A stretch of 64,000 nucleotides of DNA from a virus, in the IMG/VR virus record IMGVR_UViG_3300047476_001329, one strand, 5' to 3'. Below the pieces are notes generated by a model. The model was not told the DNA's origin and did no database searches. It worked only from the letters and a program-made list of their open reading frames with translations. The position numbers and the translations under genes were made by a program. The first letter of the stretch is position 1. The number at the start of each line of letters is the position of its first letter. Shown one piece after another: positions 7,663 through 60,715 of the stretch.

Positions 7663-8277
7663 ATGGAAGGAAAATTAACATATCAAGAAAAATCAAGTGA
7701 ACTTATAAACAGTGTTGAGGGATGGTTTATCACAAGTGATGACGGTACCAATCATTATAAAGTTTCAACTATGTCCACTGAAAAAATTAACAGTGGTAAT
7801 TACAATTTTAAATCAGGAGACACAGTTAGTTATATTTTAAAAACTAGTTGTTATGTTTCAGGAAACGAAATCGTACATGATACTGTTGCCGATTTAATGA
7901 CAACACCAGTACCAACCAAAAAAGTATTTTTAATCGATATTGACGGTACGGTTTGTGACGATATAAAGAACGAAGATTCACACCTTTACCCAACGGCAAA
8001 ACATTTCCCGAGAGCTTTGGACATAATAAACAAATGGTATGATGAAGGTCACATCATTACCTTCTTTACCGCGAGAGAGAGTAAAGATAGAGAAGTGACA
8101 GAAACATGGTTAAAAGAAAAAGGATTCAAATACCATGGTTTGGTTATGGATAAACCAAGAATAAAAGATGGGCAAGAATATGTATGGATTGATAATCGAA
8201 AGGTTAGAGCAATAACATATCTTGGAACATGGTCGGAATTAAAAGAAGTGGATGCTAAAATTCAAACATTTGAATAA
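7663..8277 (+). CDS. HAD-superfamily hydrolase (phosphatase/nucleotidase-like)
   Basis: 'KVFLIDIDGTVCDD' matches HAD motif I (DxDGT). Lies directly upstream of the ThyA-family gene with stop/start overlap. Confidence 0.5.
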   Translation: MEGKLTYQEKSSELINSVEGWFITSDDGTNHYKVSTMSTEKINSGNYNFKSGDTVSYILKTSCYVSGNEIVHDTVADLMTTPVPTKKVFLIDIDGTVCDDIKNEDSHLYPTAKHFPRALDIINKWYDEGHIITFFTARESKDREVTETWLKEKGFKYHGLVMDKPRIKDGQEYVWIDNRKVRAITYLGTWSELKEVDAKIQTFE

Positions 8278-9476
8278 TGAACAACGTAGATAAACAATAT
8301 CAAGATTTACTTCAGGACATTTTGGATAATGGTGTGGAGAAAAAAGACAGAACTGGTACAGGAACCATTTCAGTATTTGGTAGACAAATCCGTCACAAAA
8401 TGAGTGAGGGATTTCCCCTACTTACAACTAAGAAAATGGCTTGGAAAACTATGGTGACCGAGTTACTATGGTTCCTTCGTGGTGATACAAACATCAAGTT
8501 CCTTGTTGATAATGGTTGTCATATTTGGGATGGTGATGCTTATAAGAATTATTGTGAACAGCAATCAAGACAATTGATTAAAGGTTGTACTTATCAAGAG
8601 TTCATTGATAAAATCAAAACAGATGATGAGTTTGCTAAGAAGTGGGGTGAATTAGGTCCCGTGTATGGTAAGCAATGGAGAAGTTGGGAAAATTTCTTCT
8701 ATGATTGTCCAGACCCTGATGGTGATGGTTTTAGACATTCTGAAGTAGACCAAATCACAAACCTAATCAACGACCTTAAAACAAATCCTGACTCAAGACG
8801 ATTGATGGTTAATGCTTGGAATGTAGCTGAATTAGACCAAATGGTTCTTCCACCTTGTCATTATGGATTTCAAGTTTATACGAGAGAGTTGAGTTTGGAA
8901 GAGAGGAGAAAATTAGCAAATCACCCTTCAGAATTTATTTCACCAATCACAGTAGAATCTTGGGATAGAGCTAATATTCCAACCCGAGCAATCTCTCTAA
9001 TGTGGAATCAACGTTCAGTAGATACATTCTTAGGTTTACCATTCAACATTGCAAGTTATGGTTTATTACTTGAAATCATTGCTAAGATAGTTAATATGGT
9101 TCCTGACGAATTGATTGGTAATTTAGGTGATGTACATTTGTATTCAAACCATATTGAACAAGCCAAGGAACAGATTGGTAGAAAATATACACCAGAAGAA
9201 AGACATGAATTATTAAAAACTGCCATGGGTGATTTCTATCAAACGGCAGTCGACGAACAAGTTCCTTTTGGTGGAGGATTAAGTGAATACTATGAAGCAC
9301 ACAAAATACCACACCACTCGAGAGAACCTTTTGAATTACCAATATTAAAGTTACCAAAAACAAACGCATTTTGGGATGGGTTTGATGTTAGTTTATTTGG
9401 TCATTTAGACCCTATCGATTTTATGGTTGAAAACTATAAATCACACCCACCAATTAAAGCACCACTCTCAAATTAA
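8277..9476 (+). CDS. thyA: thymidylate synthase family enzyme (ThyA; a dUMP hydroxymethylase cannot be excluded) with three insertions
   Basis: 'RTGTGTISVFGRQIRH', 'GFPLLTTKKMAWK', 'ELLWFLRGDTN', catalytic Cys in 'LPPCHYGFQVY', 'DTFLGLPFNIASY', 'GDVHLYSNH', C-terminal 'PPIKAPL'. 399 aa against 264-316 typical. Confidence 0.85.
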   Translation: MNNVDKQYQDLLQDILDNGVEKKDRTGTGTISVFGRQIRHKMSEGFPLLTTKKMAWKTMVTELLWFLRGDTNIKFLVDNGCHIWDGDAYKNYCEQQSRQLIKGCTYQEFIDKIKTDDEFAKKWGELGPVYGKQWRSWENFFYDCPDPDGDGFRHSEVDQITNLINDLKTNPDSRRLMVNAWNVAELDQMVLPPCHYGFQVYTRELSLEERRKLANHPSEFISPITVESWDRANIPTRAISLMWNQRSVDTFLGLPFNIASYGLLLEIIAKIVNMVPDELIGNLGDVHLYSNHIEQAKEQIGRKYTPEERHELLKTAMGDFYQTAVDEQVPFGGGLSEYYEAHKIPHHSREPFELPILKLPKTNAFWDGFDVSLFGHLDPIDFMVENYKSHPPIKAPLSN

Positions 9477-12344: not shown

Positions 12345-14216
12345 ATGGAACTAATCAAACAAAGATTTACGTATTCTATAATTGATATCATAAGGGATAA
12401 TTGTGTCCTTAATAGTGAAAGAGTAAACGAAAAGAAACCGGTTATTCTTAGTGATGATTTTGATTTACCATTTGAATCAGTTGAACCTTCGATTGATATG
12501 ATTCTTAATGAGGTTCAAACCTCTGAAGCAATTCGTAAAAAGAGTCCTTCTTATGTTGATATTAAATTGGAACCATTCCCCAAAAACGGTAAAAGGACAA
12601 AATATTTTTATAATAATACTCAAAAGGAATACGTATCATTCCAAAAATTAACAAAGGAGCCTTGTTACACATCAAAAGAAAAACACCTCAAAAGACACTA
12701 CGGAAATCCGTTCGCCTCAATAAGAATTGTGACCACTGAGAGGTCTATTGAAATTCGAGACAATAAACTTCATATACGATTATACCAAAACATTAGGAGA
12801 AGAGAATTTAATTGGAGGTATTTTAGAAAATCTTCAGATGTTAAAACATTCACCATTGATTTGGAAAAGGGTGATTTCACAATTGGAGATATGTTATTTG
12901 GTACCACCAAGAAAAAGGTATTTAGAAAAAATTCATTTTCCACATTAGAACTACTTTTAAATTCTAATTATATTTTTAACATAAAATCGAGAATTGATAA
13001 GAATTTAAAAGTTGCCGATGAATTTTCAAATGTGTTTAATGATTATGAATTCCTTAAAATAATTAAGGAATACATTAAAGACTTACCGTCTGAATGTTCG
13101 GACTTGACACATAAACACCAATTTACAAATAAGTTTATTGAATTTTTTGTTGAAAAGAAAAAAATAAAAACACCAAATAATTTCACGGACTTAATTAAAT
13201 TATATTACCCAACTGAAAAATTCTTGAAGAAAAATGAACGGAAATTGGTACAATCAATTTTGGATAGTTTTGGAATAAATTCAAAATTTGTCAGTAAACT
13301 TTTTCACTCCAATCCAAGATTACATCTACAAGAGTTTTCATCTTTTTGTTCTTTATTTGGAAAGGATTATCCAAAGTATCTTGGTTCTTTACATCCAGAT
13401 TTTCTTAAGTTTTTTTCATATAAATCTGGAACAACGGTTACGTCGGTACCTTTAGAGTTAAGGGGTCCCCATAGTAGTGTGAGACAATTATACATTGATA
13501 AAAATGAAAAAGAAAATATTATTAAAATAGTCAATTCTTTAATAACTCCATCTGACCAAAACCGCGCACAACAGAATACAATTCAGGGGTTGTATACCTT
13601 ATTTAAAGACCATTTTGATATGATTGAAAAAATCAGAGATTATGACCCTAATATAAAAATGAGAGCAACAAATTACTCTGACTTTCACATAGAGCATTTG
13701 GAATTATCAAAAATGTGCTCATTGATTAAAAAAGGTTGGTCAATTGAATATCAGTATGATAATAGAATGGTTAGATTGGTCCAAGAGGTAATTAAAACTT
13801 CTTTTGAGGATAATGAATACACATTTAACCCAACTATCTTAAAAAGAGAAGAGGAGTATTCAGAAGAGGGGTCTTTTATGCACCATTGTGTTGCAACATA
13901 TGCAAATAAAGAATCGTCGATGATTGTTTCATTAAGGTCTGCAGATAACACCGATAGAGTTACATGTGAGTTCAATAAAAAAACAGGTGATTGTATTCAG
14001 GAAAGATACTTCTGTAATAAATTACCACCGGTTTATTTTATTGATTCTCTGGAAATATTGAAAAAAAGGATAAAGAAATTTGCGACCCAACGACTTTTAA
14101 ACCATATTGATGTTAAAAAAGTCAAAATTAAAATTAATGGTAAAGAAGTTCCCGAAAGAGCGGAGATGGATTTATTTGACCAATTGATTTATGGTATCAA
14201 TGATGCCAATTTTTAA
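12345..14216 (+). CDS. large hypothetical protein, paralog A of a tandem pair
   Basis: 623 aa. Shares two blocks with the downstream ORF: the 'DSFGINSKF...LFGKDYPKYL' region and a C-terminal 'EEGSFMHHCVATY...SLR' block. Confidence 0.45.
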   Translation: MELIKQRFTYSIIDIIRDNCVLNSERVNEKKPVILSDDFDLPFESVEPSIDMILNEVQTSEAIRKKSPSYVDIKLEPFPKNGKRTKYFYNNTQKEYVSFQKLTKEPCYTSKEKHLKRHYGNPFASIRIVTTERSIEIRDNKLHIRLYQNIRRREFNWRYFRKSSDVKTFTIDLEKGDFTIGDMLFGTTKKKVFRKNSFSTLELLLNSNYIFNIKSRIDKNLKVADEFSNVFNDYEFLKIIKEYIKDLPSECSDLTHKHQFTNKFIEFFVEKKKIKTPNNFTDLIKLYYPTEKFLKKNERKLVQSILDSFGINSKFVSKLFHSNPRLHLQEFSSFCSLFGKDYPKYLGSLHPDFLKFFSYKSGTTVTSVPLELRGPHSSVRQLYIDKNEKENIIKIVNSLITPSDQNRAQQNTIQGLYTLFKDHFDMIEKIRDYDPNIKMRATNYSDFHIEHLELSKMCSLIKKGWSIEYQYDNRMVRLVQEVIKTSFEDNEYTFNPTILKREEEYSEEGSFMHHCVATYANKESSMIVSLRSADNTDRVTCEFNKKTGDCIQERYFCNKLPPVYFIDSLEILKKRIKKFATQRLLNHIDVKKVKIKINGKEVPERAEMDLFDQLIYGINDANF

Positions 14217-14239
14217 GAGTACAAAATAAAATTTAGTCC

Positions 14240-15646
14240 ATGTATATTTTATACATGGATTTACTATATAGGCATTACCAAAACAAGAAATCAAAAGTCA
14301 ATAACACAACTTCAATTTCTGAAATCCAACTTTATCAGTTCGATAATTTACTACACTATATTGCCGATTTTTCATTTGATTATCTTCGTTACGGGACCAA
14401 AAATATTTTAACTGTACATCACGGTTTTACTATTAACCTAAAGAATGGTGACATAAATGTTTATTACCAACTCTCTAACCAATCACCAACTGAAAGAGCT
14501 CGAGGTAAAAACAGTACAAAGAAGAATAATTTCGAGTCGATTTTATACCTAATAGAACATGGTTTTTATAAGGGTGAAAAAAGGAGAGGATTTTGGGGTA
14601 AGAAATATGACTTAATGGTTGAACAAGTTACCAAAATCATAATTTCAAAAATCGAATCAGAAATAAATCAATTGATAGAAGTACCTCATCAAAAAAATTT
14701 TTCAATAAACCCATTATATGATTTATTAGTCGATTTTCATCTTCATAAAAAGAAGATAAAATATCATGACGCGATATACATTTCAATCCTTAAGGATTAC
14801 CCAAAATCAAAATGGTTAAAAATTAATGAGAACAAGTTTTTACCGGCAGTTTTGGATTCTTACGGTATTAAATCAAAATATCTAATAGGGGGGTTGAACG
14901 AGTATGAGAATCGAAATGTTGATATAAAAACACTAACCTATTTGTGTAAATTATTTGGTGAAGGGTATGTCGACTATTTAAGACAGATTAATTGGGTTGA
15001 ATTAACATCCAACAGAATTCAGTTTAAAAAATATCATTCTTTGAAGAATGAAAAGGAAAGAGCTTGTTTGGTTAGTATAATCAAAAATTGGGGCGAAATT
15101 TCATCACATGAGATTCAAAGATGTGATTTACTTGAAACAATAAATAAAGTGTTGACCCTAAGAGAATTTTTAGAAACTAAAAATATTGTTTCTAAATTTA
15201 ATGCTAAAGATTTAATTTCATTAGAATTACTTTTAAATGATTTAGATAATATAAAAAATCATTTTAAAAAGGGATATAAAGTTAGATATTCATTTGACGA
15301 AAATTTTTTAAATGAAATTGAATCCGACATTGTTGTTGGCGATAAAACATTCAAAGTTAGAATTCTGAAAGCTGAGGAGGATTTTATTAAAGAGGGTTAC
15401 ACAATGAAGAATTGTCTTTCAAAACAATTTCATAAAGGGGTTGTGTACATTTATTTGTCGATGAAACACAATCGAACAAATATCAATTTAGAATATAAAA
15501 AGGGTAATTTAATCATGTCATATGGTAAAGCCAATACCCCTGTTGAACCACATTTTAATCCAGCAATTTCTGAATTAACTAAGAGAATGTTAAAATACTC
15601 AGGTACCACATGGGTTAAAGAAAAATATGAATATATTACAAAATAA
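14240..15646 (+). CDS. hypothetical protein, paralog B of a tandem pair
   Basis: 468 aa. 'DSYGIKSKYL...LFGEGYVDYL' and 'KEGYTMKNCLSKQ...YLSMK' align with paralog A. Confidence 0.45.
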   Translation: MYILYMDLLYRHYQNKKSKVNNTTSISEIQLYQFDNLLHYIADFSFDYLRYGTKNILTVHHGFTINLKNGDINVYYQLSNQSPTERARGKNSTKKNNFESILYLIEHGFYKGEKRRGFWGKKYDLMVEQVTKIIISKIESEINQLIEVPHQKNFSINPLYDLLVDFHLHKKKIKYHDAIYISILKDYPKSKWLKINENKFLPAVLDSYGIKSKYLIGGLNEYENRNVDIKTLTYLCKLFGEGYVDYLRQINWVELTSNRIQFKKYHSLKNEKERACLVSIIKNWGEISSHEIQRCDLLETINKVLTLREFLETKNIVSKFNAKDLISLELLLNDLDNIKNHFKKGYKVRYSFDENFLNEIESDIVVGDKTFKVRILKAEEDFIKEGYTMKNCLSKQFHKGVVYIYLSMKHNRTNINLEYKKGNLIMSYGKANTPVEPHFNPAISELTKRMLKYSGTTWVKEKYEYITK

Positions 15647-29482: not shown

Positions 29483-29510
29483 ATTCCCCCGTTGTAGGGG
29501 AATTTTTTTT
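29483..29510 (+). terminator. Rho-independent terminator
   Basis: 'attcccc cgttgta ggggaat' followed by a T8 run. Confidence 0.7.
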
Positions 29511-29583
29511 GGAATACTTTTGGAAAACCGATTTCTTTTTCTTATATTTTATTATTGATGAATGTACATTAATAAGGAATATA

Positions 29584-30693
29584 ATGAAAGTAAACATATC
29601 AAATGCAACCTTTTCTTCGATAGTCGGTATTGGTCAAAAAGTAAAAAGGGCAGCAAACGAATCGGGTAACACATATCTTGAATTAAACAGGGGAGTTAAT
29701 GCGGTAACAGAAATTGACCTGACCGAAATAATGAATCAGGTTGATTTTAATTCAAAAGAATTCCAAGTCTACGCACCGAATTTAGGTATTGAATCATTTA
29801 GAAATTCTATTGTCTCAGAATACTTCCCTTCCTTTGTAAACACACCCAACTTTATCAATAATATTGCCATCACACCAGGAGGAATGCCCGCCTTGGACTT
29901 GGTAATTCAATTACTGAATGTTGAGAACATTTACTTCCCACAATTTTATTGGGGGTCTTATTCTAAAATGGCTACAATAAGACAGAAATCGTTTTCTTTT
30001 TACGAATCATTAGAGTCGATTGACCCATCAACCTTAAGTGAATCTTCATGTATCTTTATTTGTGACCCCAACAATCCTACAGGGGTTAAAATGGATGATA
30101 ATATATTGTTCAGAAAGATATATGAAATATCTATGACAGGTGCAATTATCATTTTTGATTCTCCATATAGAAAGTTGTTTTATGATGATGATTTTTTTGA
30201 TAAGGTTGCACACTTGGATAATGTGATTATCACCGAATCGTTCTCAAAATGGGTTGGGTTATCTGGTTTAAGAATGGGTTTTATTTTTTGTAAGGACAAA
30301 GACTTTAACTCAGAACTTAATATCAGATTACTCTATGAATTCAATGCGGTTTCCTCACCCTCACAAATGATAATTGAAAAGGTGTTAACAACACCTCAAG
30401 GAAGAGAATCACTGAACATTTTCAAGGAGGTTACCACAAATAACATCAGAAAGAATATTGAATACCTCAAGGAGAAAGATTTATTAGTTAAGGAGATTTA
30501 TGGTGAATCATCACCCATGGGAATTTTCGCTGTTGTAAATAAATCTGAAGATTATTTGTTTCAACATAGAATTGGTGCGGTTGGTTTGGATAAGTTTGTT
30601 TACCATGACAAAGATTTATGGTCGTCTTATTCCAGAATTTGTGTATCAGTACAACATGAATTATTTAAAAAATATTTATTAAACTTAAAATAA
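29584..30693 (+). CDS. PLP-dependent aminotransferase (class I/II fold)
   Basis: Start moved to the ATG at 29584 because the track ORF begins inside the terminator. 'SFSKWVGLSGLRMGFIF' contains the PLP-Lys region typical of aminotransferases. Confidence 0.55.
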   Translation: MKVNISNATFSSIVGIGQKVKRAANESGNTYLELNRGVNAVTEIDLTEIMNQVDFNSKEFQVYAPNLGIESFRNSIVSEYFPSFVNTPNFINNIAITPGGMPALDLVIQLLNVENIYFPQFYWGSYSKMATIRQKSFSFYESLESIDPSTLSESSCIFICDPNNPTGVKMDDNILFRKIYEISMTGAIIIFDSPYRKLFYDDDFFDKVAHLDNVIITESFSKWVGLSGLRMGFIFCKDKDFNSELNIRLLYEFNAVSSPSQMIIEKVLTTPQGRESLNIFKEVTTNNIRKNIEYLKEKDLLVKEIYGESSPMGIFAVVNKSEDYLFQHRIGAVGLDKFVYHDKDLWSSYSRICVSVQHELFKKYLLNLK

Positions 30694-43496: not shown

Positions 43497-44984
43497 ATGA
43501 ATCCACTTCTTTTAACTGACGGTTATAAAACCGGACATCACCAACAATATCCAAAGGGGACAACGTTGGTTTATTCAAATTTCACACCACGTAGTAACAA
43601 GTACGCACCCAAGGGATGTGACAAAGTGGTATCTTTCGGTCAACAAATGGTTATGAAACAAATCCACGATATGTTTCAAAATTATTTCTTTAAACGACCA
43701 AAAGAAGAAGTTATCTCTGAAATCAAACAAGAGATGTCTTGGTACTTAGGTACTGAGTACGATGTCTCACATTTTGAAAAATTACATGATTTAGGATATC
43801 TTCCAATTCATGTTAAGGGAATTGAAGAAGGAACATTGGTTCCAATTAAAGTTCCGGTGTTGACGATTTATAACACCGAACCCGAGTTCTATTGGGTTAC
43901 GAATTATTTGGAGACAATCATTTCAAATTTATTATGGAAACCGATGACATCGGCAACCATTGCGTATCAATATAGAAAAGTATTGACTCAATGGATGTTA
44001 AAAACTGACCCTGAAAGGGCGTGGTTCATCGATTGGCAAGGACACGACTTCTCAATGAGAGGTATGGATTCAATCGCGGCAACGATTAGTTCGGGACTTG
44101 GACATGCAACATCATTCATGGGTTCAGATTCTTTACCTGTTATCCACGGAGCTCGTAAATTCTATGGAGCACAAGGACCTGTTGTCGGTAGTGTTAATGC
44201 TACCGAACACAGTGTAATGTGTGCGGGTTCTAAAGAAGATGAGATTGGTACATTCCGCAGATTATTGGAAACTTATCCAACAGGAATCTTATCAGTTGTA
44301 TCAGATACATGGGACTTATGGAAAGTATGTACTGAACACGTAGTCACTTTGAAAGAAGAGATTATGGCTCGTGATGGTAAATTGGTTATTCGTCCTGACT
44401 CAGGCGACCCAGTTGATATTATTTGTGGATTGAACTCAAAACCTCCAATTATGATAGATTCAGAATTATTGAAATCGAAAGATGTTCACAATGAACCTAA
44501 AGTAAAAGGAGTAATTGAATTACTTTGGGATGTGTTCGGTGGTACGGTCAACGAACAAGGTTATAAAGTACTTGACTCCCATATTGGTGCAATCTACGGT
44601 GACTCAATCACAATCGACAGAGCTGAAGAAATCTGTAAGAGATTGGAAGCAAAAGGTTTTGCATCAACAAACATTGTATTAGGTGTTGGTTCTTTCACAT
44701 ATCAATATAATACAAGAGATACATTTGGTTTCGCGATGAAGGCAACATACGTTGAAGTGGATGGGGAAGGTCGTGAAATCTTCAAGGACCCAATCACCGA
44801 CGACGGTACTAAGAAATCTGCAACCGGTTTATTGTCGGTCTTCAAAGATGATAATTTAGTTTATCGATTACACGACCATTGTGATTGGGATACCGAATCA
44901 AAAGGAGAACTCCAAACCATTTACAAAGATGGCACTTTACGAAATGTTGTATCATTTGAAGAAATTCGTTTACGTTTAAAATAA
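43497..44984 (+). CDS. nicotinamide phosphoribosyltransferase-like (NAMPT / Namat-type)
   Basis: 'MNPLLLTDGYKTGHHQQYP' closely matches the NAMPT N-terminus (compare 'NILLATDSYKVTHYKQYPP'). 495 aa. 'LDSHIGAIYGDSIT' region. Confidence 0.85.
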   Translation: MNPLLLTDGYKTGHHQQYPKGTTLVYSNFTPRSNKYAPKGCDKVVSFGQQMVMKQIHDMFQNYFFKRPKEEVISEIKQEMSWYLGTEYDVSHFEKLHDLGYLPIHVKGIEEGTLVPIKVPVLTIYNTEPEFYWVTNYLETIISNLLWKPMTSATIAYQYRKVLTQWMLKTDPERAWFIDWQGHDFSMRGMDSIAATISSGLGHATSFMGSDSLPVIHGARKFYGAQGPVVGSVNATEHSVMCAGSKEDEIGTFRRLLETYPTGILSVVSDTWDLWKVCTEHVVTLKEEIMARDGKLVIRPDSGDPVDIICGLNSKPPIMIDSELLKSKDVHNEPKVKGVIELLWDVFGGTVNEQGYKVLDSHIGAIYGDSITIDRAEEICKRLEAKGFASTNIVLGVGSFTYQYNTRDTFGFAMKATYVEVDGEGREIFKDPITDDGTKKSATGLLSVFKDDNLVYRLHDHCDWDTESKGELQTIYKDGTLRNVVSFEEIRLRLK

Positions 44985-44989
44985 AAACC

Positions 44990-45964
44990 GTGGCAGAAGT
45001 ATTAAATTTAGTAAACCCAAACGATATACTTTCATTTAAGTACAAGATAAGTCGTTTCCCCGATGGTCAACAATCTTTACAATTGACTGAAGATGGTTAC
45101 AACACATTTGAATCTCTCAGACATTCTAATAACGCACATGGTATCATTATCAAATCAAGGTTGAACACTTTCAGTGACCTTGAACTAATCATATGTGCAA
45201 CTAAGGCATTGAGAAACGTTGGTGTTAAGAACATTGAACTTTATATTCCATATTGTATCGGGGGTAGAAGTGACCGTAAGTTTATGGAAGGTGGAATCAA
45301 TTACATTAAAGATGTAATTGCGCCAATCATCAATTCTCAAGGGTATGAAAGGGTAATCATTATGGACCCACATAGTGATGTATTGGAAGCATGTATCGAC
45401 AACTTTGTTAAGATTGATAACTTAAAGATTGCTAACTTCGCTTTACGTGATTATTTCATTTCAAAAGGATTTGAAACATGGAGTGCGGATAATTTTGAAA
45501 AGGTTCGGTTTGTTTCTCCTGATGCTGGTGCATTGAAAAAAGTATTCCACGTTGCTGAGAATGTAAAATACAAACACAACGTTATAATTTCTTCAAAACA
45601 TCGTAACATTGAAACCGGTGCAATTGATTACACCGATGTTCCAATGTCAGTACACGATGCCGATAAGGACTTCTTCATCTTTGATGATATTTGTGATGGT
45701 GGTAGAACCTTTATCGAGATAGCTAAGGCAATCGAAGAGAAAAGAAAGTTATCAAGTGTAGTTCAACCACAACATTATGGTAAGAACTACTTAGTGGTTA
45801 CCCACGGTATTTTCAGTGTAGGTTTTGACTTCCTAGTCCAATATTTTGACGGTATCTACTGTACAAATAGTGTAAAAGATATTCGAGACGGAACTATTGT
45901 GGACACGTTCTCAAGACACAAAACAATTCATTCATTAGTTAAACAATTAGATGTATTCAAATGA
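44990..45964 (+). CDS. ribose-phosphate pyrophosphokinase-like (PRPP synthetase / Adps-type)
   Basis: 'KISRFPDGQQSLQL' (PRS N-domain F-x-DGE-like motif) and 'FFIFDDICDGGRTF' (PRPP-binding loop). Confidence 0.75.
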   Translation: MAEVLNLVNPNDILSFKYKISRFPDGQQSLQLTEDGYNTFESLRHSNNAHGIIIKSRLNTFSDLELIICATKALRNVGVKNIELYIPYCIGGRSDRKFMEGGINYIKDVIAPIINSQGYERVIIMDPHSDVLEACIDNFVKIDNLKIANFALRDYFISKGFETWSADNFEKVRFVSPDAGALKKVFHVAENVKYKHNVIISSKHRNIETGAIDYTDVPMSVHDADKDFFIFDDICDGGRTFIEIAKAIEEKRKLSSVVQPQHYGKNYLVVTHGIFSVGFDFLVQYFDGIYCTNSVKDIRDGTIVDTFSRHKTIHSLVKQLDVFK

Positions 45965-57146: not shown

Positions 57147-57331
57147 AAGTATATTCGTAAATGATGCCCACGAAATAGTATCAAAACGAGGTAAAGAGAT
57201 TTTAGCGGAACAACAAAAAGAATACACTTTTATTCCAAACCCAAAGACATCTCGTACACAATCTGATATGGTTGACATAATAATCGATGGAAACGGAAAA
57301 AGACGAAGATTTAAATAATGTGAAAAAATAT

Positions 57332-57462
57332 AGTCAGGTGGCGAAATGGTAGACGCTGAAAGTATCCTAAAGTACACACCATAAACATAAGAACTTGGTG
57401 ATAGATTAAGTCCATTAAGTTGGAAGAGTGTACAACTACAGGTTCGAGTCCTGTTCTGACTA
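57332..57462 (+). ncRNA. tRNA-like element E1 (131 nt; canonical acceptor, D- and T-arms, about 80-nt central insertion)
   Basis: 5' 'agtcagg tg gcgaaatggtagacgc' and 3' 'acagg ttcgagt cctgt tctgact a'. The 7-bp acceptor pairs, with one G-U. T-loop is TTCGAGT. The centre holds a 6-bp hairpin gtacac/gtgtac enclosing about 50 nt. Confidence 0.45.
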
Positions 57463-57480
57463 CAAAAAATAACTATTAAA

Positions 57481-57804
57481 ATGGTATACAGAAAACTAAA
57501 AAGGGTTTGGTCTCACAATGACATGAACTATATCCCAAAGTTCAGAGAAACATTTCCCGAATTAAACAAAGTATCAAGTGAAGAAATGTGTGATAGATGG
57601 GTCGAACTTGGTATTGATTTTTACACTGAACAAAAAACGGAGGTAAAAGGATGGGTTAGATTAACGTTACCTTTTGCGTTGATACTTTTCGTATTAATGT
57701 TTATCGGATTACCATTTACATTTATGATTACCGGTAAATGGGGTTATAGTCTTGGAGAAAAAAATAGAATACTCAATTGGTTTCGTATTTTACGTTTAAA
57801 TTAA
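57481..57804 (+). CDS. membrane protein
   Basis: 107 aa, TM segment 'LTLPFALILFVLMFIGLPFTFMI'. Starts 19 nt after E1. Confidence 0.35.
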   Translation: MVYRKLKRVWSHNDMNYIPKFRETFPELNKVSSEEMCDRWVELGIDFYTEQKTEVKGWVRLTLPFALILFVLMFIGLPFTFMITGKWGYSLGEKNRILNWFRILRLN

Positions 57805-57816
57805 AATTAAAATAAG

Positions 57817-57939
57817 ATGATAGAAATAATTTTTTTTGTGTTACTACCGATAGGTTTATTAGGACTTTTAGTGGTAACCATATGGGACTTCATCGACGAA
57901 ATACGTTCAATCAACAAAAATGAAAAGATAAAAAAATAG
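57817..57939 (+). CDS. tiny membrane peptide (40 aa)
   Basis: Unlisted ORF 'MIEIIFFVLLPIGLLGLLVVTIWDFIDEIR...'. Confidence 0.2.
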   Translation: MIEIIFFVLLPIGLLGLLVVTIWDFIDEIRSINKNEKIKK

Positions 57940-57942
57940 ATT

Positions 57943-58128
57943 ATGATAAAACACATTAAACGTTTTTTATTTTCATTCACTAAAGAAGGAATTGAACAAC
58001 AGAGAGTTCAAATGCGACAACAACGATGTAAGCACGAGAAATGGTCTCATGACACCCAAATCAGAACGATAGAATGTAAATCCTGTGGTTTAAGAGCGTG
58101 GGTTGAGGATTACACCAATCTCTATTAA
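57943..58128 (+). CDS. small zinc-ribbon protein
   Basis: 'CKHEKW...CKSCG'. Confidence 0.25.
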   Translation: MIKHIKRFLFSFTKEGIEQQRVQMRQQRCKHEKWSHDTQIRTIECKSCGLRAWVEDYTNLY

Positions 58129-58262
58129 ATGGAAAATCATTCGGTTTGGTTTAAAAGGTGGTTCAATCCAATACTTAGAAAAACATTCAAAGTGGAGATA
58201 TGTTCCATCATAATGGGTAATGAAGTAATTGGTTACGGAATTAGAAAATTAAAATAAAATAT

Positions 58263-58333
58263 AGTCAGGTGGCGTACTGGGAGACGCTCCGTGTATAGAC
58301 GGGAGAGGGTAGGTTCGATTCCTACCCTGACTA
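58263..58333 (+). tRNA. tRNA-like gene E2 (71 nt; anticodon arm non-canonical, isotype unresolved)
   Basis: Acceptor agtcagg/cctgact. D-arm gcgt-actgggag-acgc. T-arm gtagg-ttcgatt-cctac. The anticodon region 'tccgtgtatagacggg' folds either as a 5-bp stem with a 6-nt loop or a 4-bp stem with an 8-nt loop, not the usual 7-nt loop. Confidence 0.5.
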
Positions 58334-58444
58334 CAAAAATTGTGAGTGAAATATATAGAACTCTCCTTATGTGATGTAAAGCTTTCCTTTCACATATAGT
58401 AATGGAAGTGCGGACACCTTAGCCTAAGTTATCAATCAAGGAAT

Positions 58445-58532
58445 AGTCAGGTGGCGGAATTGGTAGACGCCCTGTTTCTAGACGATGGCCGAAAGCAAGA
58501 TTTCGGTACAGGTTCGAATCCTGTCCTGACTA
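58445..58532 (+). tRNA. class II tRNA with long variable arm, probable tRNA-Leu(UAG)
   Basis: Acceptor agtcagg/cctgact. D-loop 'gaattggtaga'. Anticodon arm ctgtt-tcTAGac-gatgg (G-U rich stem). Variable arm hairpin ccgaaa-gcaaga-tttcgg. T-arm acagg-ttcgaat-cctgt. No encoded CCA. Confidence 0.6.
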
Positions 58533-58546
58533 CAAAAAATAAAATT

Positions 58547-58729
58547 ATGATAGATTTAGATAAAGCAAAATTCATCGGAGAAGGTGAATGGGTTAAAGAT
58601 TCAGCATATCAGGTATATGAATTGGATGGTAAATATTATTCCGTTATAGTAATTGGACATACTAATAAAGAAATTATGGATGATTCGATAACTGAAATTG
58701 ATAAAGAAGATATTAGTAAGTATATCTAA
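58547..58729 (+). CDS. hypothetical small protein
   Basis: Start moved to 'MIDLDKAKF' because the track ORF start (58451) lies inside the tRNA. Confidence 0.3.
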   Translation: MIDLDKAKFIGEGEWVKDSAYQVYELDGKYYSVIVIGHTNKEIMDDSITEIDKEDISKYI

Positions 58730-58735
58730 ATAATA

Positions 58736-58829
58736 TAGTCAGGTGGCACGGGGTGTACGGTTAAGTTAATGAATTTACGGTATTATAGTTAACTTAATTT
58801 CCTACAGGGTTCGACTCCCTACTGACTAC
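58736..58829 (+). ncRNA. tRNA-like element E4 (94 nt; acceptor and T-arm conserved, centre replaced by a 9-bp hairpin)
   Basis: 5' 'tagtcag g tg gcacggggtgtacgg' and 3' 'aggg ttcgact ccct a ctgacta c'. Central ttaagttaa / ttaacttaa 9-bp stem with a 19-nt loop. Confidence 0.4.
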
Positions 58830-59063
58830 ACGTTCCGTAACAGACAACGGATAGTATTCCCAATACGATGAGAAACGGAGTGATGTCCGTATGGGAAAGT
58901 TGGTGATAGATACGTAAAATCACCCGGTTGACTGCCGAGACGGTAACATCCCTCAGGAAGGAGAGTCAAAAAGTTTATTCCTAACCTTAACTTGTTGCCT
59001 ACTTTAGGACAAGATTTGGGGACAACCATAACACTTGTAAGTTGGATAAATTAGGGTGTTAAT

Positions 59064-59169
59064 TAGTCAGGTGGCGGAAGCTATCGGTAGAGTGATGATT
59101 GATTGGAAGACATTAAGTTGACACCCACTCAATATGTAGCTTAATGCAGGTTCGAATCCTGTCCTGACT
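59064..59169 (+). ncRNA. tRNA-like element E5 (106 nt; conserved ends, expanded centre)
   Basis: 5' 'agtcagg tg gcggaagctatcggtag'. 3' 'gcagg ttcgaat cctgt cctgact a' is identical to the E3 3' end. Central cattaag / cttaatg 7-bp stem with a 22-nt loop. Confidence 0.4.
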
Positions 59170-59185
59170 ACAAAAAAAATAGATT

Positions 59186-59395
59186 ATGGACAATGGTGAT
59201 GAATCAAGTGCATTCCACAAAGCTGATACGGTTGACGGTCAATGGTTATCATTAGTCAAATCTGAAAGGAAATTGCAAAAACAAAAATTGCTCGAGATAT
59301 TCGGACACGAAAATGCGGGTCCAAGATGGCAGTACATGAATGGACTGATTGACATGTCATTAAAATATATTGAATTAACAAAAGAAGAAGAATAA
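59186..59395 (+). CDS. hypothetical small protein
   Basis: 69-aa ORF starting 17 nt after E5. Confidence 0.3.
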   Translation: MDNGDESSAFHKADTVDGQWLSLVKSERKLQKQKLLEIFGHENAGPRWQYMNGLIDMSLKYIELTKEEE

Positions 59396-59446
59396 AATTA
59401 TTAACTCCATATACTATAAACGTACTTTATAGATTCTAGACACTAT

Positions 59447-59473
59447 AATAGGGTTCGACTCTCTCCTGACTAC
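59447..59473 (+). other. orphan tRNA 3'-half-like fragment (T-arm plus acceptor 3' strand only)
   Basis: 'ataggg ttcgact ctct cctgacta c aaaaa' matches the shared 3' end of E1-E5. No matching 5' acceptor strand (agtcagg) within about 250 nt upstream. Confidence 0.4.
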
Positions 59474-59579
59474 AAAAATAGTATTTATTCTAATTTTAAA
59501 AGGTAGTTATACCTCTCTTTTGTTTAACTATTCTCGTTTACGTTAAAAAACAATTAATTTTAACGAAAAAACAAAAATT

Positions 59580-60419
59580 ATGAAAAATTTACTTTTATTA
59601 CTTTTATTTTTACCCAATTTAATATTGGGTCAGTACAATCCGATGTCAATTTATTATACAATACCTGTGGGGGACACTTGTACTATACATACAGTTCCCG
59701 CGAATTGTTATAATGATTCTATGACAATCGAAGGATATATCCAAGGAGGTCAACGACCAATTTATTACACTTGGAAACTAGTGAATAACAACACAACCAT
59801 ACAGGATTCAACATTATGTACAATTGTTCCTGGTCACGATTATTTAACTGATTGGTTAGACTTCTTAGATGTTAGTTTAAATAACCCTCAACCTAAGTTG
59901 GGTAATGGAAACTATACTTATAGATTAACCGTGATTGATAGTCGTGTTGAATCTGCAACAGATAAACACGATACACTCATCGTCAATTTCAAATATACTT
60001 TCCCTAACCAAATTACGTTACCTACCCCACTTGCCAATTTACCGGATTGCGACACTTGCGTTGGGGAATATTTGTCGATAAATCCGGCAATGGGTACATC
60101 ACCATATAACATTCTTTTAATTGGTGCAGATAATTTAGGTAATCACGTTGAATATTATGGTTATCATTGTCAGTCATTAAATATTACTAATCTAGCCGAA
60201 TTATATGCTGGTTGTTATGACATTTATGTCGAAGATATAATGGGTTGTATGGAATCATTTGATTATTGTTACACCACAACTGGAGTAACTGAATTAGCCA
60301 TTGGCAAACACTTGGTTAAGGTAACGGACCTAATGGGTAAAGAATGTTTACCCGAACCTAATAAATTATTGATTTATCATTATAGTGATGGGTCAACGGA
60401 TAAAATTATTAAAAATTAA
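59580..60419 (+). CDS. secreted Cys-rich protein
   Basis: 'MKNLLLLLLFLPNLILGQ' signal peptide. Multiple Cys pairs. 279 aa. Confidence 0.4.
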   Translation: MKNLLLLLLFLPNLILGQYNPMSIYYTIPVGDTCTIHTVPANCYNDSMTIEGYIQGGQRPIYYTWKLVNNNTTIQDSTLCTIVPGHDYLTDWLDFLDVSLNNPQPKLGNGNYTYRLTVIDSRVESATDKHDTLIVNFKYTFPNQITLPTPLANLPDCDTCVGEYLSINPAMGTSPYNILLIGADNLGNHVEYYGYHCQSLNITNLAELYAGCYDIYVEDIMGCMESFDYCYTTTGVTELAIGKHLVKVTDLMGKECLPEPNKLLIYHYSDGSTDKIIKN

Positions 60420-60463
60420 AATAATTAGATACGTAACCAAAATAGAAAATTTTATCAAAATAT

Positions 60464-60495
60464 TTTGGAATATACAAAAGTATTTTGTTTATTTG
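60464..60495 (+). promoter_or_regulatory. phage promoter-like motif (weaker copy)
   Basis: 'tttggaatatacaaaagtattttgtttatttg'. ATG at 60518. Confidence 0.3.
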
Positions 60496-60517
60496 TGTTA
60501 TAAACTTAAAATCGAAC

Positions 60518-60715
60518 ATGAAAATATTAATTACAGCGGCATTGCACGACACAAAAGAAACGATTGACGACACATTACCCGGTGATTTTGTACCGAGAGT
60601 CGGGGATACCATTTACTTCAAATCAAAAACAAAATATAAAGTTGAACGAGTTGTTATCGATTATGATTTAAATGAAATTACCGTTTGGGTTAAAGACGCC
60701 TTGCCAACAGATTAA
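60518..60715 (+). CDS. hypothetical small protein
   Basis: Start placed at 'MKILITAALHD' inside the track ORF 60485..60715. Confidence 0.3.
   Translation: MKILITAALHDTKETIDDTLPGDFVPRVGDTIYFKSKTKYKVERVVIDYDLNEITVWVKDALPTD

What the first reader, a model, noticed from the sequence alone, without database searches (positions are those of the whole stretch)
57331..59473. Array of tRNA-like elements with near-identical ends but aberrant cores, each directly upstream of a small ORF
Five elements (57332-57462, 58263-58333, 58445-58532, 58736-58829, 59064-59169) share an almost invariant 5' end 'tAGTCAGGTGGCg', an invariant 3' end 'GGTTCGAnTCC...CTGACTAcAAAAA', and a well-formed 7-bp acceptor stem and T-arm with TTCGAnT loops. 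Only one (58445-58532) folds as a plausible canonical tRNA: class II, long variable arm, TAG anticodon. The others carry 6- or 8-nt anticodon loops (E2) or replace the anticodon arm with long perfect hairpins enclosing 19-50 nt loops (E1 131 nt, E4 94 nt, E5 106 nt). Real phage tRNA clusters do not normally share one acceptor stem across isotypes. Every element ends in an A-run and is followed within about 15-25 nt by the ATG of a small ORF (57481, 58547, 59186, 59580). Possible readings are these: (a) tRNA genes with short introns or insertions in a bacterial virus; (b) tRNA-like punctuation, meaning RNase P/Z processing signals that excise small-protein mRNAs from a polycistronic transcript; (c) a tRNA-derived repeat family used for recombination or homing. 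Any of these would be unusual for a phage.
Basis: seen in the sequence. Interest (0 to 1): 0.8.

Follow-up and report, generated by a model that had tools for sequence, protein, structure and literature searches.

The report
Phage tRNA-shaped carrier RNAs, swappable middles
The five odd "tRNAs" belong to a large, apparently undescribed family of phage small-RNA genes that keep the top half of a leucine tRNA as a constant chassis, replace the anticodon region with many different conserved RNA modules, and use their identical ends as recombination points for swapping gene cassettes.

Summary
The array is real. There are five full elements plus one 3'-only remnant, all on the + strand between 57332 and 59472. 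Only E2 and E3 reach the Rfam tRNA threshold, and neither has a normal anticodon loop.

The array is one example of a large family. The same ends occur in more than 120 IMG/VR viral contigs, and about two dozen copies lie on mostly Bacteroidota metagenome bins. No copy was found in cultured phages, and no host tRNA has this acceptor stem.

The constant part is a leucine-tRNA chassis: acceptor stem, D arm, covarying 15:48 pair, T arm, A73, U-1 and C74, with no encoded CCA. The middle is hypervariable, about 140 unrelated types.

Each middle type is conserved as a unit. Homology between contigs stops exactly at the RNA ends. E5-type RNAs (64 contigs) show strong covariation. The E1 and E5 middles also occur on non-tRNA hairpin carriers.

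Two phages 97-98% identical to the window differ from it by whole cassettes whose breakpoints lie in the chassis modules.

Best reading: these are tRNA-derived carrier RNAs, probably cut out like tRNAs, that display modular cargo RNAs. Their conserved ends also drive cassette exchange. Cargo function and expression are untested.

The parts
57332..57462 (+). E1, 131 nt. It has the tRNA-Leu-type chassis: AGTCAGG acceptor stem, GGCGAAATGGTAGACGC D arm, T48, ACAGGTTCGAGTCCTGT T arm and A73. It carries an 80-nt cargo closed by the stem GTACACAC/GTGTAC.
   Evidence: The Rfam tRNA match is partial, 19.3 bits. The cargo is conserved in L299 on the same chassis. In L302 it sits on a plain 12-bp hairpin carrier, and the inner stem is compensated there.
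58263..58333 (+). E2, 71 nt. This is the short-cargo member: a tRNA-length molecule with a 5-bp stem, a 6-nt loop (GUAUAG) and no nucleotide 26. It has a C15:G48 pair.
   Evidence: ARAGORN calls it 'tRNA-???' with anticodon 'at'. Rfam tRNA scores 37.2 bits. It is conserved in the close relatives L340 and L352. Its core has no exact match in IMG/VR.
58445..58532 (+). E3, 88 nt. It looks like a class II tRNA, but the anticodon stem has three G.U pairs and C sits where U33 should be. The conserved motif is UGUUUCUAGACGA.
   Evidence: ARAGORN calls it Leu(tag). Rfam tRNA scores 40.2 bits. The homologue at L021 5430-5515 is called Ser(aga), in a different register. In phages 98% identical to the window, this core is replaced by an unrelated one while both flanks stay 98% identical.
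58737..58828 (+). E4, 92 nt. This is the most degenerate member. The acceptor stem is 6 bp with a G.A mismatch, the T stem is 4-5 bp, and there is no normal D arm. The cargo is a 12-bp perfect hairpin with a 17-nt loop.
   Evidence: It is conserved only in the close relatives L340 and L352. Its loop has no exact match in IMG/VR.
59065..59170 (+). E5, 106 nt. The chassis has a remodelled D region. The cargo has an outer stem, an inner stem AUUGA.UGG/CCA.UCAAU and the loop AAGACAUUAAGUUGACAC.
   Evidence: The same RNA occurs in 8 viral and 56 metagenome contigs. In the alignment, 98.4% of cells are paired. 15 of 31 pairs carry double changes, against 4.9±1.6 in shuffles (0 of 500 reach 15) and 1-4 in the slid controls. 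The acceptor stem occurs as at least six different compensated sequences.
59450..59472 (+). E6, a 3'-only remnant: a T arm (AGGG TTCGACT CTCT) plus the 3' acceptor strand CCTGACT and A. It is most likely a recombination scar.
   Evidence: Only 2 true orphans were found among about 220 3' modules. In the relative L352, the homology with the window breaks exactly at ATAATAGG|GTTCGACTC.
58830..59064 (+). A separate structured non-coding RNA of about 235 nt, in the 3' trailer of E4. It is a neighbour of the array, not part of the tRNA-like family.
   Evidence: It is conserved after E4 in L340 and L352. In L363 (11206-11417) it lies at a different genomic place with no tRNA-like element beside it. 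RNAalifold gives a multi-helix fold with 5 compensated pairs from 3 sequences. There is no Rfam match.
57481..57804 (+). Small ORF of 107 aa with predicted membrane segments. Its ATG lies 18 nt after E1.
   Evidence: It matches phrog_36118, of unknown function, at E 6.6e-32.
58547..58729 (+). Small ORF of 60 aa. Its ATG lies 14 nt after E3.
   Evidence: No family match was found. It is retained downstream of the swapped element in L340 and L352.
59186..59395 (+). Small ORF of 69 aa. Its ATG lies 15 nt after E5.
   Evidence: Homologues sit directly downstream of E5-type elements in three other contigs.
59580..60419 (+). ORF of 279 aa with an N-terminal signal-like segment, 106 nt after E6. It belongs to the cassette that is missing in relative L352.
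   Evidence: No confident family match was found.

Best explanation
The five elements are genes for tRNA-derived carrier RNAs. Each keeps the parts of a leucine tRNA that make the L-shape and are read by tRNA-processing enzymes: a 7-bp acceptor stem, the D arm with G18G19, the 15:48 tertiary pair, the T arm and the A73 discriminator. The anticodon arm and variable arm are replaced by a cargo RNA module.

Inferred steps:
- The elements are transcribed inside the long + strand transcript.
- RNase P cuts at the 5' end and a 3' processing enzyme such as RNase Z cuts at the 3' end.
- CCA is added afterwards, because it is not encoded.
- The result is a stable tRNA-shaped RNA that displays the cargo, and the short-leader mRNA of the next small ORF is released at the same time.

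Shown:
- Cargos are independent, conserved, structured modules.
- The same cargo appears on chassis with different acceptor sequences, and also on non-tRNA hairpins.
- One chassis carries more than a hundred unrelated cargos.
- The near-identical 5' and 3' chassis modules are the breakpoints at which closely related phages gain, lose and swap cores and adjacent small ORFs. The family therefore also works as a set of recombination anchors.

Unknown: what the cargos do. Binding of host proteins or RNAs is the most likely class of function.
For: 1. The family is large. 173 elements were extracted, with a median length of 102 nt.

2. ARAGORN calls only 40 of the 173 elements, with scattered anticodons that include 11 calls with two-base or four-base anticodons.

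3. The chassis is conserved well beyond the positions my search pattern fixed. The T stem is over 90% ACAGG/CCTGT, the D arm is GGCGGAAT(T)GGTAGACGC, and T48 is at 79%.

4. Positions 15 and 48 covary. The pair is A:T in 131 elements, and 8 of the 11 elements with G15 have C48 (Fisher p = 4e-7).

5. In the 96 elements not fetched with the 3' pattern, U is at -1 in 83%, C at position 74 in 99%, and CCA is encoded in 4.

6. Acceptor stems are fully compensated among RNAs that share one cargo. L190 and L252 show this against their AGTCAGG counterparts. All 7 acceptor pairs in the E5-type alignment carry double changes.

7. Cargos are under selection. Homology between contigs is confined to positions 0 to len+1 of the element at 76-100% identity, with unalignable flanks, in 10 of 18 pairs tested and in E5 versus L069.

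8. Cargos occur on other carriers. The E1 cargo sits on a 12-bp hairpin in L302. The E5 cargo sits on a long hairpin in tRNA 3' trailers in L287, L322 and L358, where the carrier stems are themselves compensated.

9. In other phages the elements lie inside true tRNA arrays. There they score 31-50 bits on the Rfam tRNA model, against 55-77 bits for the real tRNAs.

10. Recombination is visible directly. L352 and L340 differ from the window by a core swap at E3, a 600-nt cassette of one element plus ORFs bounded by 5' modules, and a 1.25-kb cassette bounded by the E6 T loop.
Against: - There is no expression, end-mapping or processing data. RNase P/Z cleavage, CCA addition and stability are inferred from sequence features alone.
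- Cargo function is unknown. No antisense target was found in the window. No conserved partner protein was found. No cargo matched an Rfam family.
- Isolated cores are only weakly more structured than shuffles, with a mean z of -0.52.
- E4 departs from the chassis, and E2 and E4 have no homologues outside close relatives.
- The invariance of AGTCAGG in most members is partly a consequence of how I searched.
- If processing alone mattered, any tRNA would serve as a carrier. Why this particular chassis sequence is kept so strictly is explained here only by recombination or by an unknown sequence-specific partner.
Confidence: 0.6

Rival explanations
1. The functional part is the tRNA mimic itself. 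On this view the RNAs are decoys or competitive substrates for host factors that act on tRNAs. Candidates are tRNA-cleaving defence nucleases, enzymes that attack the CCA tail, and leucyl-tRNA synthetase. The middle only has to be 'not an anticodon', so that the RNA cannot poison translation.
For: - The chassis keeps the complete E. coli-type leucine identity set: A73, A14, the A15:U48 pair and the G18G19 placement (this set is from established knowledge of LeuRS identity). LeuRS ignores the anticodon, so such RNAs could still be charged.
- The acceptor and T-arm sequence is kept far more strictly than structure alone needs.
- Phage tRNAs with altered anticodon loops are thought to evade anticodon nucleases (PMC10264068, found).
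- tRNA-tail-cleaving immune nucleases have been described (PMC12851939, found).
Against: - Cargos are conserved as specific sequences and structures, and they survive transfer onto non-tRNA carriers. That would not be expected if the middle were irrelevant.
- A decoy role does not explain why one phage carries up to six different cargos.
- No defence or anti-defence gene is consistently nearby.
Confidence: 0.15
2. The elements are pure punctuation. They exist only as RNase P/Z cleavage signals that cut the polycistronic transcript into individual small-ORF mRNAs, and the excised RNA is a by-product.
For: - Elements are wedged between ORFs. The distance to the next ATG peaks at 10-19 nt (42 of 234 elements), and an upstream stop codon lies within 20 nt in 74 of 234.
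- U-1 and C74 are conserved.
- The array region shows no excess of promoter-like or terminator-like sites.
Against: - Under this model the middles should drift neutrally. Instead they are 85-100% identical between contigs whose flanks cannot be aligned, and their stems are kept by compensatory changes.
- E2 and E4 are not followed by ORFs.
- In tRNA arrays the real tRNAs could already provide punctuation.
Confidence: 0.1
3. They are working decoder tRNAs with unusual features: 6- or 8-nt anticodon loops for frameshifting, suppressor anticodons, or short spliced insertions.
For: - E2 and E3 pass the Rfam tRNA threshold.
- ARAGORN assigns two-base or four-base anticodons to 11 members. A few members, such as L010 and L061 Lys-UUU, look canonical apart from sharing the same acceptor stem.
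Against: - E1, E4 and E5, and most of the family, have no anticodon arm at all.
- ARAGORN puts the anticodon in different registers in homologues: E3 is called tag, while L021 is called aga.
- The same middles occur without any tRNA around them.
- ORFs in the window read through normally with the standard code.
Confidence: 0.04
4. It is only a DNA repeat family. The shared ends are recombination or homing sites for shuffling small-ORF cassettes, and the tRNA-like look is inherited and no longer functional as RNA.
For: Indels and swaps between phages 97-98% identical to each other have their breakpoints exactly in the 5' or 3' modules. E6 looks like a recombination scar.
Against: - A DNA-only repeat would not maintain base pairing through double substitutions in the acceptor stem, the T stem and the cargo stems. 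It would not maintain the 15:48 tertiary pair either.
- No recombinase or homing endonuclease gene is consistently linked.
Confidence: 0.06

Closest known systems
Engineered 'tRNA scaffold' for recombinant RNA expression (Ponchon and Dardel approach; extension described in PMC3753655, found)
   Same: An RNA of interest replaces the anticodon region of a tRNA. The acceptor stem, D arm and T arm are kept so that the chimera is processed by tRNA enzymes and is stable.
   Different: That system is man-made, and its cargo is closed by the anticodon stem. Here the architecture occurs naturally in phages, often removes the variable arm as well, uses a leucine (class II) chassis, and comes in hundreds of variants.
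Murid herpesvirus 68 tRNA-miRNA-encoded RNAs (TMERs); from my own knowledge, not checked here
   Same: Viral tRNA-like genes that are not used for decoding. They serve as processing and expression modules for attached small-RNA hairpins, and they occur as an array.
   Different: TMERs come from a eukaryotic virus and are transcribed by RNA polymerase III. Their cargo hairpins lie downstream of the tRNA-like part, not inside it. The sequences are not related.
tmRNA, including phage-encoded copies seen in L088 and L111
   Same: The acceptor stem and T arm are kept, the anticodon domain is replaced by something else, and the gene sits in phage tRNA arrays.
   Different: tmRNA has a G3:U70 alanine identity pair, no D stem, pseudoknots, a tag reading frame and a length of about 350 nt. 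None of these features is present here, and the Rfam tmRNA model does not match beyond a 15-nt T arm.
Promoter-early stem-loop (PeSL) cassettes of T4-type phages that mediate modular shuffling of small ORFs (Arbiol, Comeau and Krisch 2010); from my own knowledge
   Same: Short conserved repeats flank small ORFs of unknown function in a plastic genome region, and they act as recombination points for cassette gain and loss.
   Different: PeSLs are a promoter plus a terminator hairpin, not RNA genes. Here the repeats are the two ends of a structured RNA that is itself under selection.
Phage tRNAs with anticodon-loop changes that escape tRNA-targeting defences (PMC10264068)
   Same: Phage-encoded tRNA bodies whose anticodon region departs from the host version.
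   Different: Those tRNAs still decode. Most members here have no anticodon arm.
Small stable RNAs C and D of the T4 tRNA cluster, and sRNAs cut from tRNA trailers such as 3'ETS-leuZ; from my own knowledge
   Same: Non-tRNA small RNAs are co-transcribed and co-processed with tRNAs. The E5 cargo placed in tRNA 3' trailers (L287, L322, L358) and the 235-nt RNA after E4 resemble this arrangement.
   Different: I know of no evidence that those RNAs use a shared tRNA chassis with exchangeable middles.

Membership tests
Canonical tRNA (Rfam RF00005) | 7-bp acceptor stem plus a 5-bp T stem with a T-psi-C type loop | tested here: met
   E1, E2, E3 and E5 meet this. E4 is one nucleotide short, giving a 6-bp acceptor stem or a 4-bp T stem.
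Canonical tRNA (Rfam RF00005) | Anticodon arm: a 5-bp stem and a 7-nt loop with U33 and a purine at position 37 | tested here: not met
   E1, E4 and E5 have no such arm. E2 has a 6-nt loop. E3 has C at position 33 and three G.U pairs in the stem. Across the family, ARAGORN calls only 40 of 173 elements, with scattered anticodons.
Canonical tRNA (Rfam RF00005) | Score at or above the Rfam gathering threshold of 29 bits | tested here: inconclusive
   E2 scores 37.2 bits and E3 40.2 bits, so both pass. E1 gets 19.3 bits from a partial match. E4 and E5 have no tRNA match. Real tRNAs in related arrays score 55-77 bits.
Leucine tRNA (class II, bacterial LeuRS identity) | A73 discriminator, A14, an A15:U48 tertiary pair and a Leu-type D loop with G18G19 | tested here: met
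   Family-wide, A73 is at 100%, A14 at 89% and A15 at 88%. T48 is at 79%, and G15 goes with C48. E1 and E3 fit this pattern. E2 has C15:G48. E4 and E5 have remodelled D regions.
Leucine tRNA (class II, bacterial LeuRS identity) | The RNA is aminoacylated with leucine | not testable with these tools
   This needs a charging assay or acid-gel Northern blots.
tRNA gene interrupted by a group I intron | An insert of about 200 nt or more in the anticodon loop, with the P1-P9 core, leaving an intact tRNA after removal | tested here: not met
   The cores in the window are 20-80 nt. No intron family appears at E<=10. No anticodon arm remains after removing the insert.
tmRNA | G3:U70 pair, tag reading frame, pseudoknots, length of about 350 nt | tested here: not met
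   The acceptor stem is A1-G2-U3-C4..., with U3:A70. The only Rfam tmRNA match is a 15-nt T arm at 10.7 bits.
Bacterial Y RNA / YrlA | The 5' and 3' ends form a Ro-binding helix, with the tRNA-like domain inside the molecule | tested here: not met
   Here the 5' and 3' ends form the acceptor stem itself. No Y RNA family matched in Rfam.
Natural tRNA-chassis carrier RNA (working class proposed here; analogue of the engineered tRNA scaffold) | One chassis with many unrelated cargos, and the same cargo on different carriers | tested here: met
   139 non-redundant cores sit on the AGTCAGG chassis. The E1 cargo occurs on a hairpin in L302. The E5 cargo occurs on six acceptor variants and on hairpins in L287, L322 and L358.
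Natural tRNA-chassis carrier RNA (working class proposed here; analogue of the engineered tRNA scaffold) | Excision by RNase P and a 3' tRNA-processing enzyme, followed by accumulation as a stable RNA | not testable with these tools
   Only indirect evidence is available: U-1 in 83%, C74 in 99%, no encoded CCA, and location inside tRNA arrays.
Repeat-bounded recombination cassettes (PeSL-like) | Indels and swaps between close relatives have breakpoints in the repeats | tested here: met
   Comparison of the window with L352 and L340 shows a core swap at E3, a 600-nt cassette bounded by 5' modules, and a 1.25-kb cassette bounded by the E6 T loop.
Repeat-bounded recombination cassettes (PeSL-like) | The repeat is an early promoter plus a terminator stem-loop | tested here: not met
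   Promoter-like and terminator-like sites are not in excess. The repeats are the ends of a structured RNA.

The most novel reading that the evidence does not exclude
Phages of freshwater Bacteroidota maintain a recombining 'library' of small functional RNAs mounted on one leucine-tRNA chassis. The chassis is not only a processing handle. It is charged by LeuRS or bound by tRNA-handling machinery such as EF-Tu, the ribosome or tRNA-directed immune nucleases. Each cargo is thereby delivered to, or shielded from, a particular host system. This would be a programmable tRNA-mimic platform for host takeover or counter-defence, with the identical ends allowing phages to trade cargos by homologous recombination.
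Probability: 0.2. Interest if true: 0.92.

Novelty: new variant of a known kind. Interest (0 to 1): 0.8.

Why it matters
Phage tRNA genes are usually read as codon-supply or anti-defence spare parts, and elements like these are either annotated as odd tRNAs or ignored.

If this reading holds, a large part of what tRNA finders flag as 'undetermined' in uncultured phage genomes is a separate class of non-coding RNA genes. These genes would have a modular carrier-plus-cargo design, which bioengineers invented independently. That would have several consequences:
- It gives more than a hundred new conserved RNA modules to study.
- It provides a natural test of what a tRNA chassis contributes: processing, stability, charging or targeting.
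- Bacteroidota lack Hfq and ProQ (from my own knowledge), so how their small RNAs are stabilised is an open question. This family may bear on it.
- It offers a concrete mechanism, identical RNA-gene ends acting as recombination anchors, for the rapid turnover of small ORFs in plastic regions of phage genomes.

Tried and rejected
- DNA similarity of the 3-kb region, of the 3' module and of the E1 and E5 cargos to 50,697 GenBank phage records gave no match, or only ordinary tRNAs at 87% or less.
- A search for antisense targets of the cores and spacers within the window found nothing above chance. The only notable result was a 10-mer, CATTAAGTTG, shared by the E1 and E5 cargos.
- I looked for a conserved partner protein near the elements, in 149 loci overall and in 64 E5-type loci. 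None was found. The commonest neighbours were terminase (18 loci) and spurious antisense ORFs.
- I looked for known RNA families in the cargos with three Rfam runs, two of them at permissive E-values. The results were tRNA and tmRNA matches, one freshwater-1 RNA outside the elements, and a weak RAGATH-30 similarity for the E1 cargo (20.5 bits against a gathering score of 59.5) that I do not trust.
- K-mer enrichment in the cores gave only modest motifs, such as TATGGT and TAAGTCC.
- Folding-energy z-scores of isolated cores showed only a weak signal.
- Exact-pattern scans for the E2 core and the E4 loop found nothing in IMG/VR. A gapped E1 pattern found nothing in the metagenomes.
- A scan for sigma-70 promoters and intrinsic terminators was uninformative, and it is probably the wrong promoter model for this host.
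- Family searches on the flanking ORFs returned only unknown-function families.
- Seven literature searches found no description of this family. One search failed on a term that was too short.
- One paper that looked promising, on a protein-RNA anti-CRISPR, turned out to concern host tRNA fragments.
- I considered integration (att) sites and rejected the idea, because no host tRNA with this acceptor stem exists in 185,579 species genomes.
- I considered CRISPR-like or diversity-generating systems and rejected them, because the middles are unrelated sequences conserved as units, not mutated copies.

Full report
**1. What is in the window**

The region 57332-59472 holds five full elements and one fragment, all on the + strand.
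- The 11-mer AGTCAGGTGGC occurs exactly at 57332, 58263, 58445, 58737 and 59065, and nowhere else in the 64 kb.
- CTGACTAC occurs six times, against 0.78 expected by chance.
- A T-loop motif, GGTTCRANTC, lies just upstream of each of those six sites.
- The sixth site, 59450-59472, has a T arm and the 3' acceptor strand but no 5' half.
- ARAGORN calls only E2 (undetermined, two-base 'anticodon', meaning a 6-nt loop) and E3 (Leu-TAG).
- The Rfam tRNA model gives 37 bits for E2 and 40 bits for E3. E1, E4 and E5 do not reach the threshold.
- Free-energy folding recovers the acceptor stem and T arm and puts a long hairpin or multi-hairpin where the anticodon arm should be.
- E4 is the most degenerate. 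It is one nucleotide short between the T loop and the 3' end, has no normal D arm and has no A-run after it.
- Only E1, E3 and E5 are followed within 14-18 nt by an ORF start.

The window itself is a large phage genome segment. It encodes ThyX, a helicase, NAMPT plus a PRPP synthetase, a GlnII-like glutamine synthetase and many small ORFs of unknown function.

**2. The array is one example of a very large family**

- In nearly all of these loci a 5' module, AGTCAGGTGGCGGAAT(T)GGTAGACGC, lies 60-190 nt upstream. The stretch between the two modules is different in almost every case.
- I extracted 173 elements with a median length of 102 nt. Up to six occur per contig.
- A pairing-aware search found a 5' partner for 211 of about 220 3' modules. 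True orphans like E6 are rare.
- The same pattern in one genome per species (185,579 species) gave only 64 loci. About two dozen are elements of this kind on short contigs of metagenome bins, mostly Bacteroidota (Chitinophagia, Flavobacterium, Sediminibacterium, Saprospiraceae). The rest are an unrelated Bacteroidales tRNA-Glu or chance matches in coding sequence.
- No host tRNA therefore has this acceptor stem, and the family is essentially viral.
- It is absent from 50,697 GenBank phage records.
- Rfam 15 has no family for it, and seven full-text searches found no description. I cannot exclude a description outside those sources.

**3. The constant part is a leucine-tRNA chassis that works as RNA**

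- Positions my search pattern did not fix are still over 90% conserved. These include the T stem ACAGG/CCTGT, U8, the D arm GGCGGAAU(U)GGUAGACGC, and U48 at 79%.
- The D arm is the standard bacterial tRNA-Leu D arm. With A73 and the A15:U48 pair it makes up the E. coli-type leucine identity set (established knowledge of LeuRS identity).
- Positions 15 and 48 covary. The pair is A:U in 131 elements, and 8 of the 11 elements with G15 have C48 (Fisher p = 4e-7). The tertiary Levitt pair, and hence the L-shape, is therefore maintained.
- A second scan, keyed on the D arm, showed that the acceptor stem is not always AGTCAGG. Elements with aberrant middles also carry TGTTGTG/CACAACA, GTCAAGG/CCTTGAC, GACAAGG/CCTTGTC and other stems, always complementary. 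Some of them have middles homologous to AGTCAGG elements. This is whole-helix compensation.
- In the 96 elements not fetched through the 3' pattern, the base before A1 is U in 83%. The base after A73 is C in 99%, followed by an A-rich run. CCA is encoded in only 4. U(-1) and a 3' RCC are known preferences of bacterial RNase P, and a missing CCA implies endonucleolytic 3' processing plus CCA addition. Both points come from established knowledge and were not tested here.
- In other phages the elements sit inside real tRNA arrays, for example about 30 tRNAs and a tmRNA in L111. There they score 31-50 bits on the tRNA model, against 55-77 bits for the true tRNAs.

**4. The variable part is cargo, not junk**

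- All-against-all comparison leaves about 140 unrelated core types (139 remain after removing near-duplicates), plus some twenty small groups.
- Within the small groups, stems change by double substitutions. In L038, L092 and L104, CATACAA/TTGTATG becomes CATATAA/TTATATG, and GAG/CTC becomes GGG/CCC.
- When two contigs share a core type, their homology begins at position 0 and ends at the last base of the element. This held at 76-100% identity with unalignable flanks in 10 of 18 pairs.
- E5 matches L069 at 94.5% over 110 nt, with no flanking similarity even at the protein level.
- For E5 I collected 8 viral and 56 metagenome contigs, mostly from freshwater lakes. In an alignment of 26 distinct sequences, 98.4% of cells pair. 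15 of 31 pairs show changes on both sides, against 4.9±1.6 in shuffles (0 of 500 reach 15) and 1-4 when partners are slid. All 7 acceptor pairs, 2 T-stem pairs and 6 cargo-stem pairs covary.
- The invariant 18-nt loop of the E5 cargo is partly forced by the 20-mer I searched with, so I do not count it as evidence.

**5. Cargo and carrier are separable**

- The E1 cargo (UGAAAGUAUC.UAAAG, a stem, CCAUAAACAUAAGAACUUGGUGAUAGAUUAAGUCCAUUAAGUUGGAAGA, and the closing strand) is found on the same chassis in L299.
- In L302 the same cargo has no tRNA part. It is closed by a perfect 12-bp stem, and its inner stem has changed from GUACAC/GUGUAC to GGUUAU/AUAGCC.
- The E5 cargo is found on chassis with six different acceptor sequences.
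- In L287, L322 and L358 the E5 cargo sits on a long hairpin placed immediately 3' of a genuine tRNA. The hairpin's own stems are compensated there (GUGGAAACC/GGUUUCC becomes GUAGAGAC/GGUCUCUC).
- This is the logic of the engineered tRNA scaffold: an interchangeable handle that gets an RNA module made, cut out and kept.
- The E1 and E5 cargos share a hairpin with the hexaloop UUAAGU closed by CA/UG. I could not interpret it.

**6. The identical ends are recombination points**

Two metagenome contigs are close relatives of the window phage. L352 is 98.5% identical over 9.5 kb, and L340 is 97.5% identical. They differ from the window at three places, each touching a chassis module.
- At E3 the flanks are 98.3% and 98.8% identical, but the core is replaced by an unrelated one of a type also seen in L013. 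The replacement 5' module has one change (AGTTAGG), and an extra tRNA-like gene of about 75 nt lies just upstream.
- L340 has about 600 nt more, consisting of a 147-nt element and two small ORFs. The insertion lies exactly between two ..AAAU|AGTCAGGTGGC junctions ahead of E4.
- L352 lacks window 59452-60708. The break is at AUAAUAGG|GUUCGACUC, which is the T loop of E6.

E6 is therefore best read as the scar of such an event.

**7. What I could not establish**

- I have no expression or end-mapping data.
- No antisense targets were found in the window.
- No partner protein was found.
- No known RNA family matched any cargo.
- The cores are only weakly more stable than shuffled sequence.
- E2 and E4 have no homologues beyond the close relatives.
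- Cargo function is therefore open. I rank the carrier model first at 0.6.
- A tRNA-mimic decoy role gets 0.15. It is attractive because the leucine identity set is intact and LeuRS ignores anticodons, but it does not explain cargo conservation.
- Pure punctuation gets 0.1, DNA-only repeats 0.06 and real decoders 0.04.

**8. Comparison with known systems**

The family works like the synthetic tRNA scaffold and like the tRNA-like/miRNA genes of murid herpesvirus 68. It shares with tmRNA the idea of a tRNA top half joined to another domain. Its ends behave like the PeSL repeats of T4-type phages. It fails the defining tests of canonical tRNA (anticodon arm), tmRNA, intron-bearing tRNA and Y RNA. 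I therefore file it as a new variant of the tRNA-like RNA kind rather than as a member of any named family.

Noticed in passing
window 58830-59064 (+): A structured non-coding RNA of about 235 nt lies directly after E4. It is conserved in L340 and L352. In L363 (11206-11417) it lies at a different genomic position with no tRNA-like element next to it. It folds into several helices with 5 compensated pairs from 3 sequences, one hairpin is variable in length, and it has no Rfam match.
   Followed up: partly
window 58334-58444 (+); L352 and L340 at the equivalent place: The 110 nt between E2 and E3 are non-coding. In the two close relatives an additional tRNA-like gene of about 75 nt follows this spacer. 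Its acceptor stem is GGGCAU/AUGCCC, its T arm is UGGGUUUCGAAUACCCA, and it has a 9-nt loop containing CCUAG. ARAGORN does not call it.
   Followed up: partly
window 57411-57424 and 59107-59120: The E1 and E5 cargos share the 10-mer CAUUAAGUUG. In both it forms a hairpin with the hexaloop UUAAGU closed by C-A/U-G. The chance of such a shared 10-mer is roughly 0.005-0.01. Its meaning is unknown.
   Followed up: partly
L021 4124-4186: A match to the Rfam candidate motif freshwater-1 RNA (RF02979) scores 70.1 bits, E 3.8e-14, just under the gathering score of 72. It lies inside a phage tRNA array that also holds five chassis elements.
   Followed up: no
L088 5938-6409; L111 5724-6218: Phage-encoded tmRNA genes (71 and 68 bits) lie in the same arrays as the chassis elements.
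   Followed up: no
L008, L015, L030, L074, L075, L087, L094, L108 (elements of 74-81 nt): This is a distinct short subfamily with the same acceptor stem and T arm. Its body is different but conserved: GCGUAAUGAGG, a hairpin, AAUCCU, then GGUUGCUU. It has no Leu-type D arm.
   Followed up: no
L021 2390-2481, L090 13264-13356, L281, L028, L031, L047, L088, L142, L150: Some cargos contain a second T-loop-like hairpin (GGUUCGAnUCC) inside the element, as if a second tRNA elbow motif were nested in the body.
   Followed up: no
L078, L082, L097 and window E5 (59065-59170): In some members extra sequence sits inside the D loop, between GGCGGAA and GGUAGA, rather than after the D arm. The chassis therefore tolerates insertions at more than one site.
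   Followed up: no
window 5212-6342, 8277-9476, 29509-30693, 43497-45964, 12345-15646: Auxiliary genes are present in this phage: a GlnII-like glutamine synthetase, ThyX, a PLP-dependent aminotransferase, NAMPT next to a PRPP synthetase (an NAD salvage pair), and two adjacent PcfJ-like proteins.
   Followed up: no
family-wide, for example L352 1164-1259, L340 5248-5343, L287 5835-5908: ARAGORN reports four-base 'anticodons' (caag, ttag, gaaa, atga, aaat) from 8-nt loops and two-base ones from 6-nt loops for 11 of the 40 members it calls. The element that replaces E3 in the relatives looks like a tRNA-Leu(CAA) with an 8-nt loop, UUCAAGGU. I could not exclude quadruplet decoding for this minority.
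   Followed up: partly
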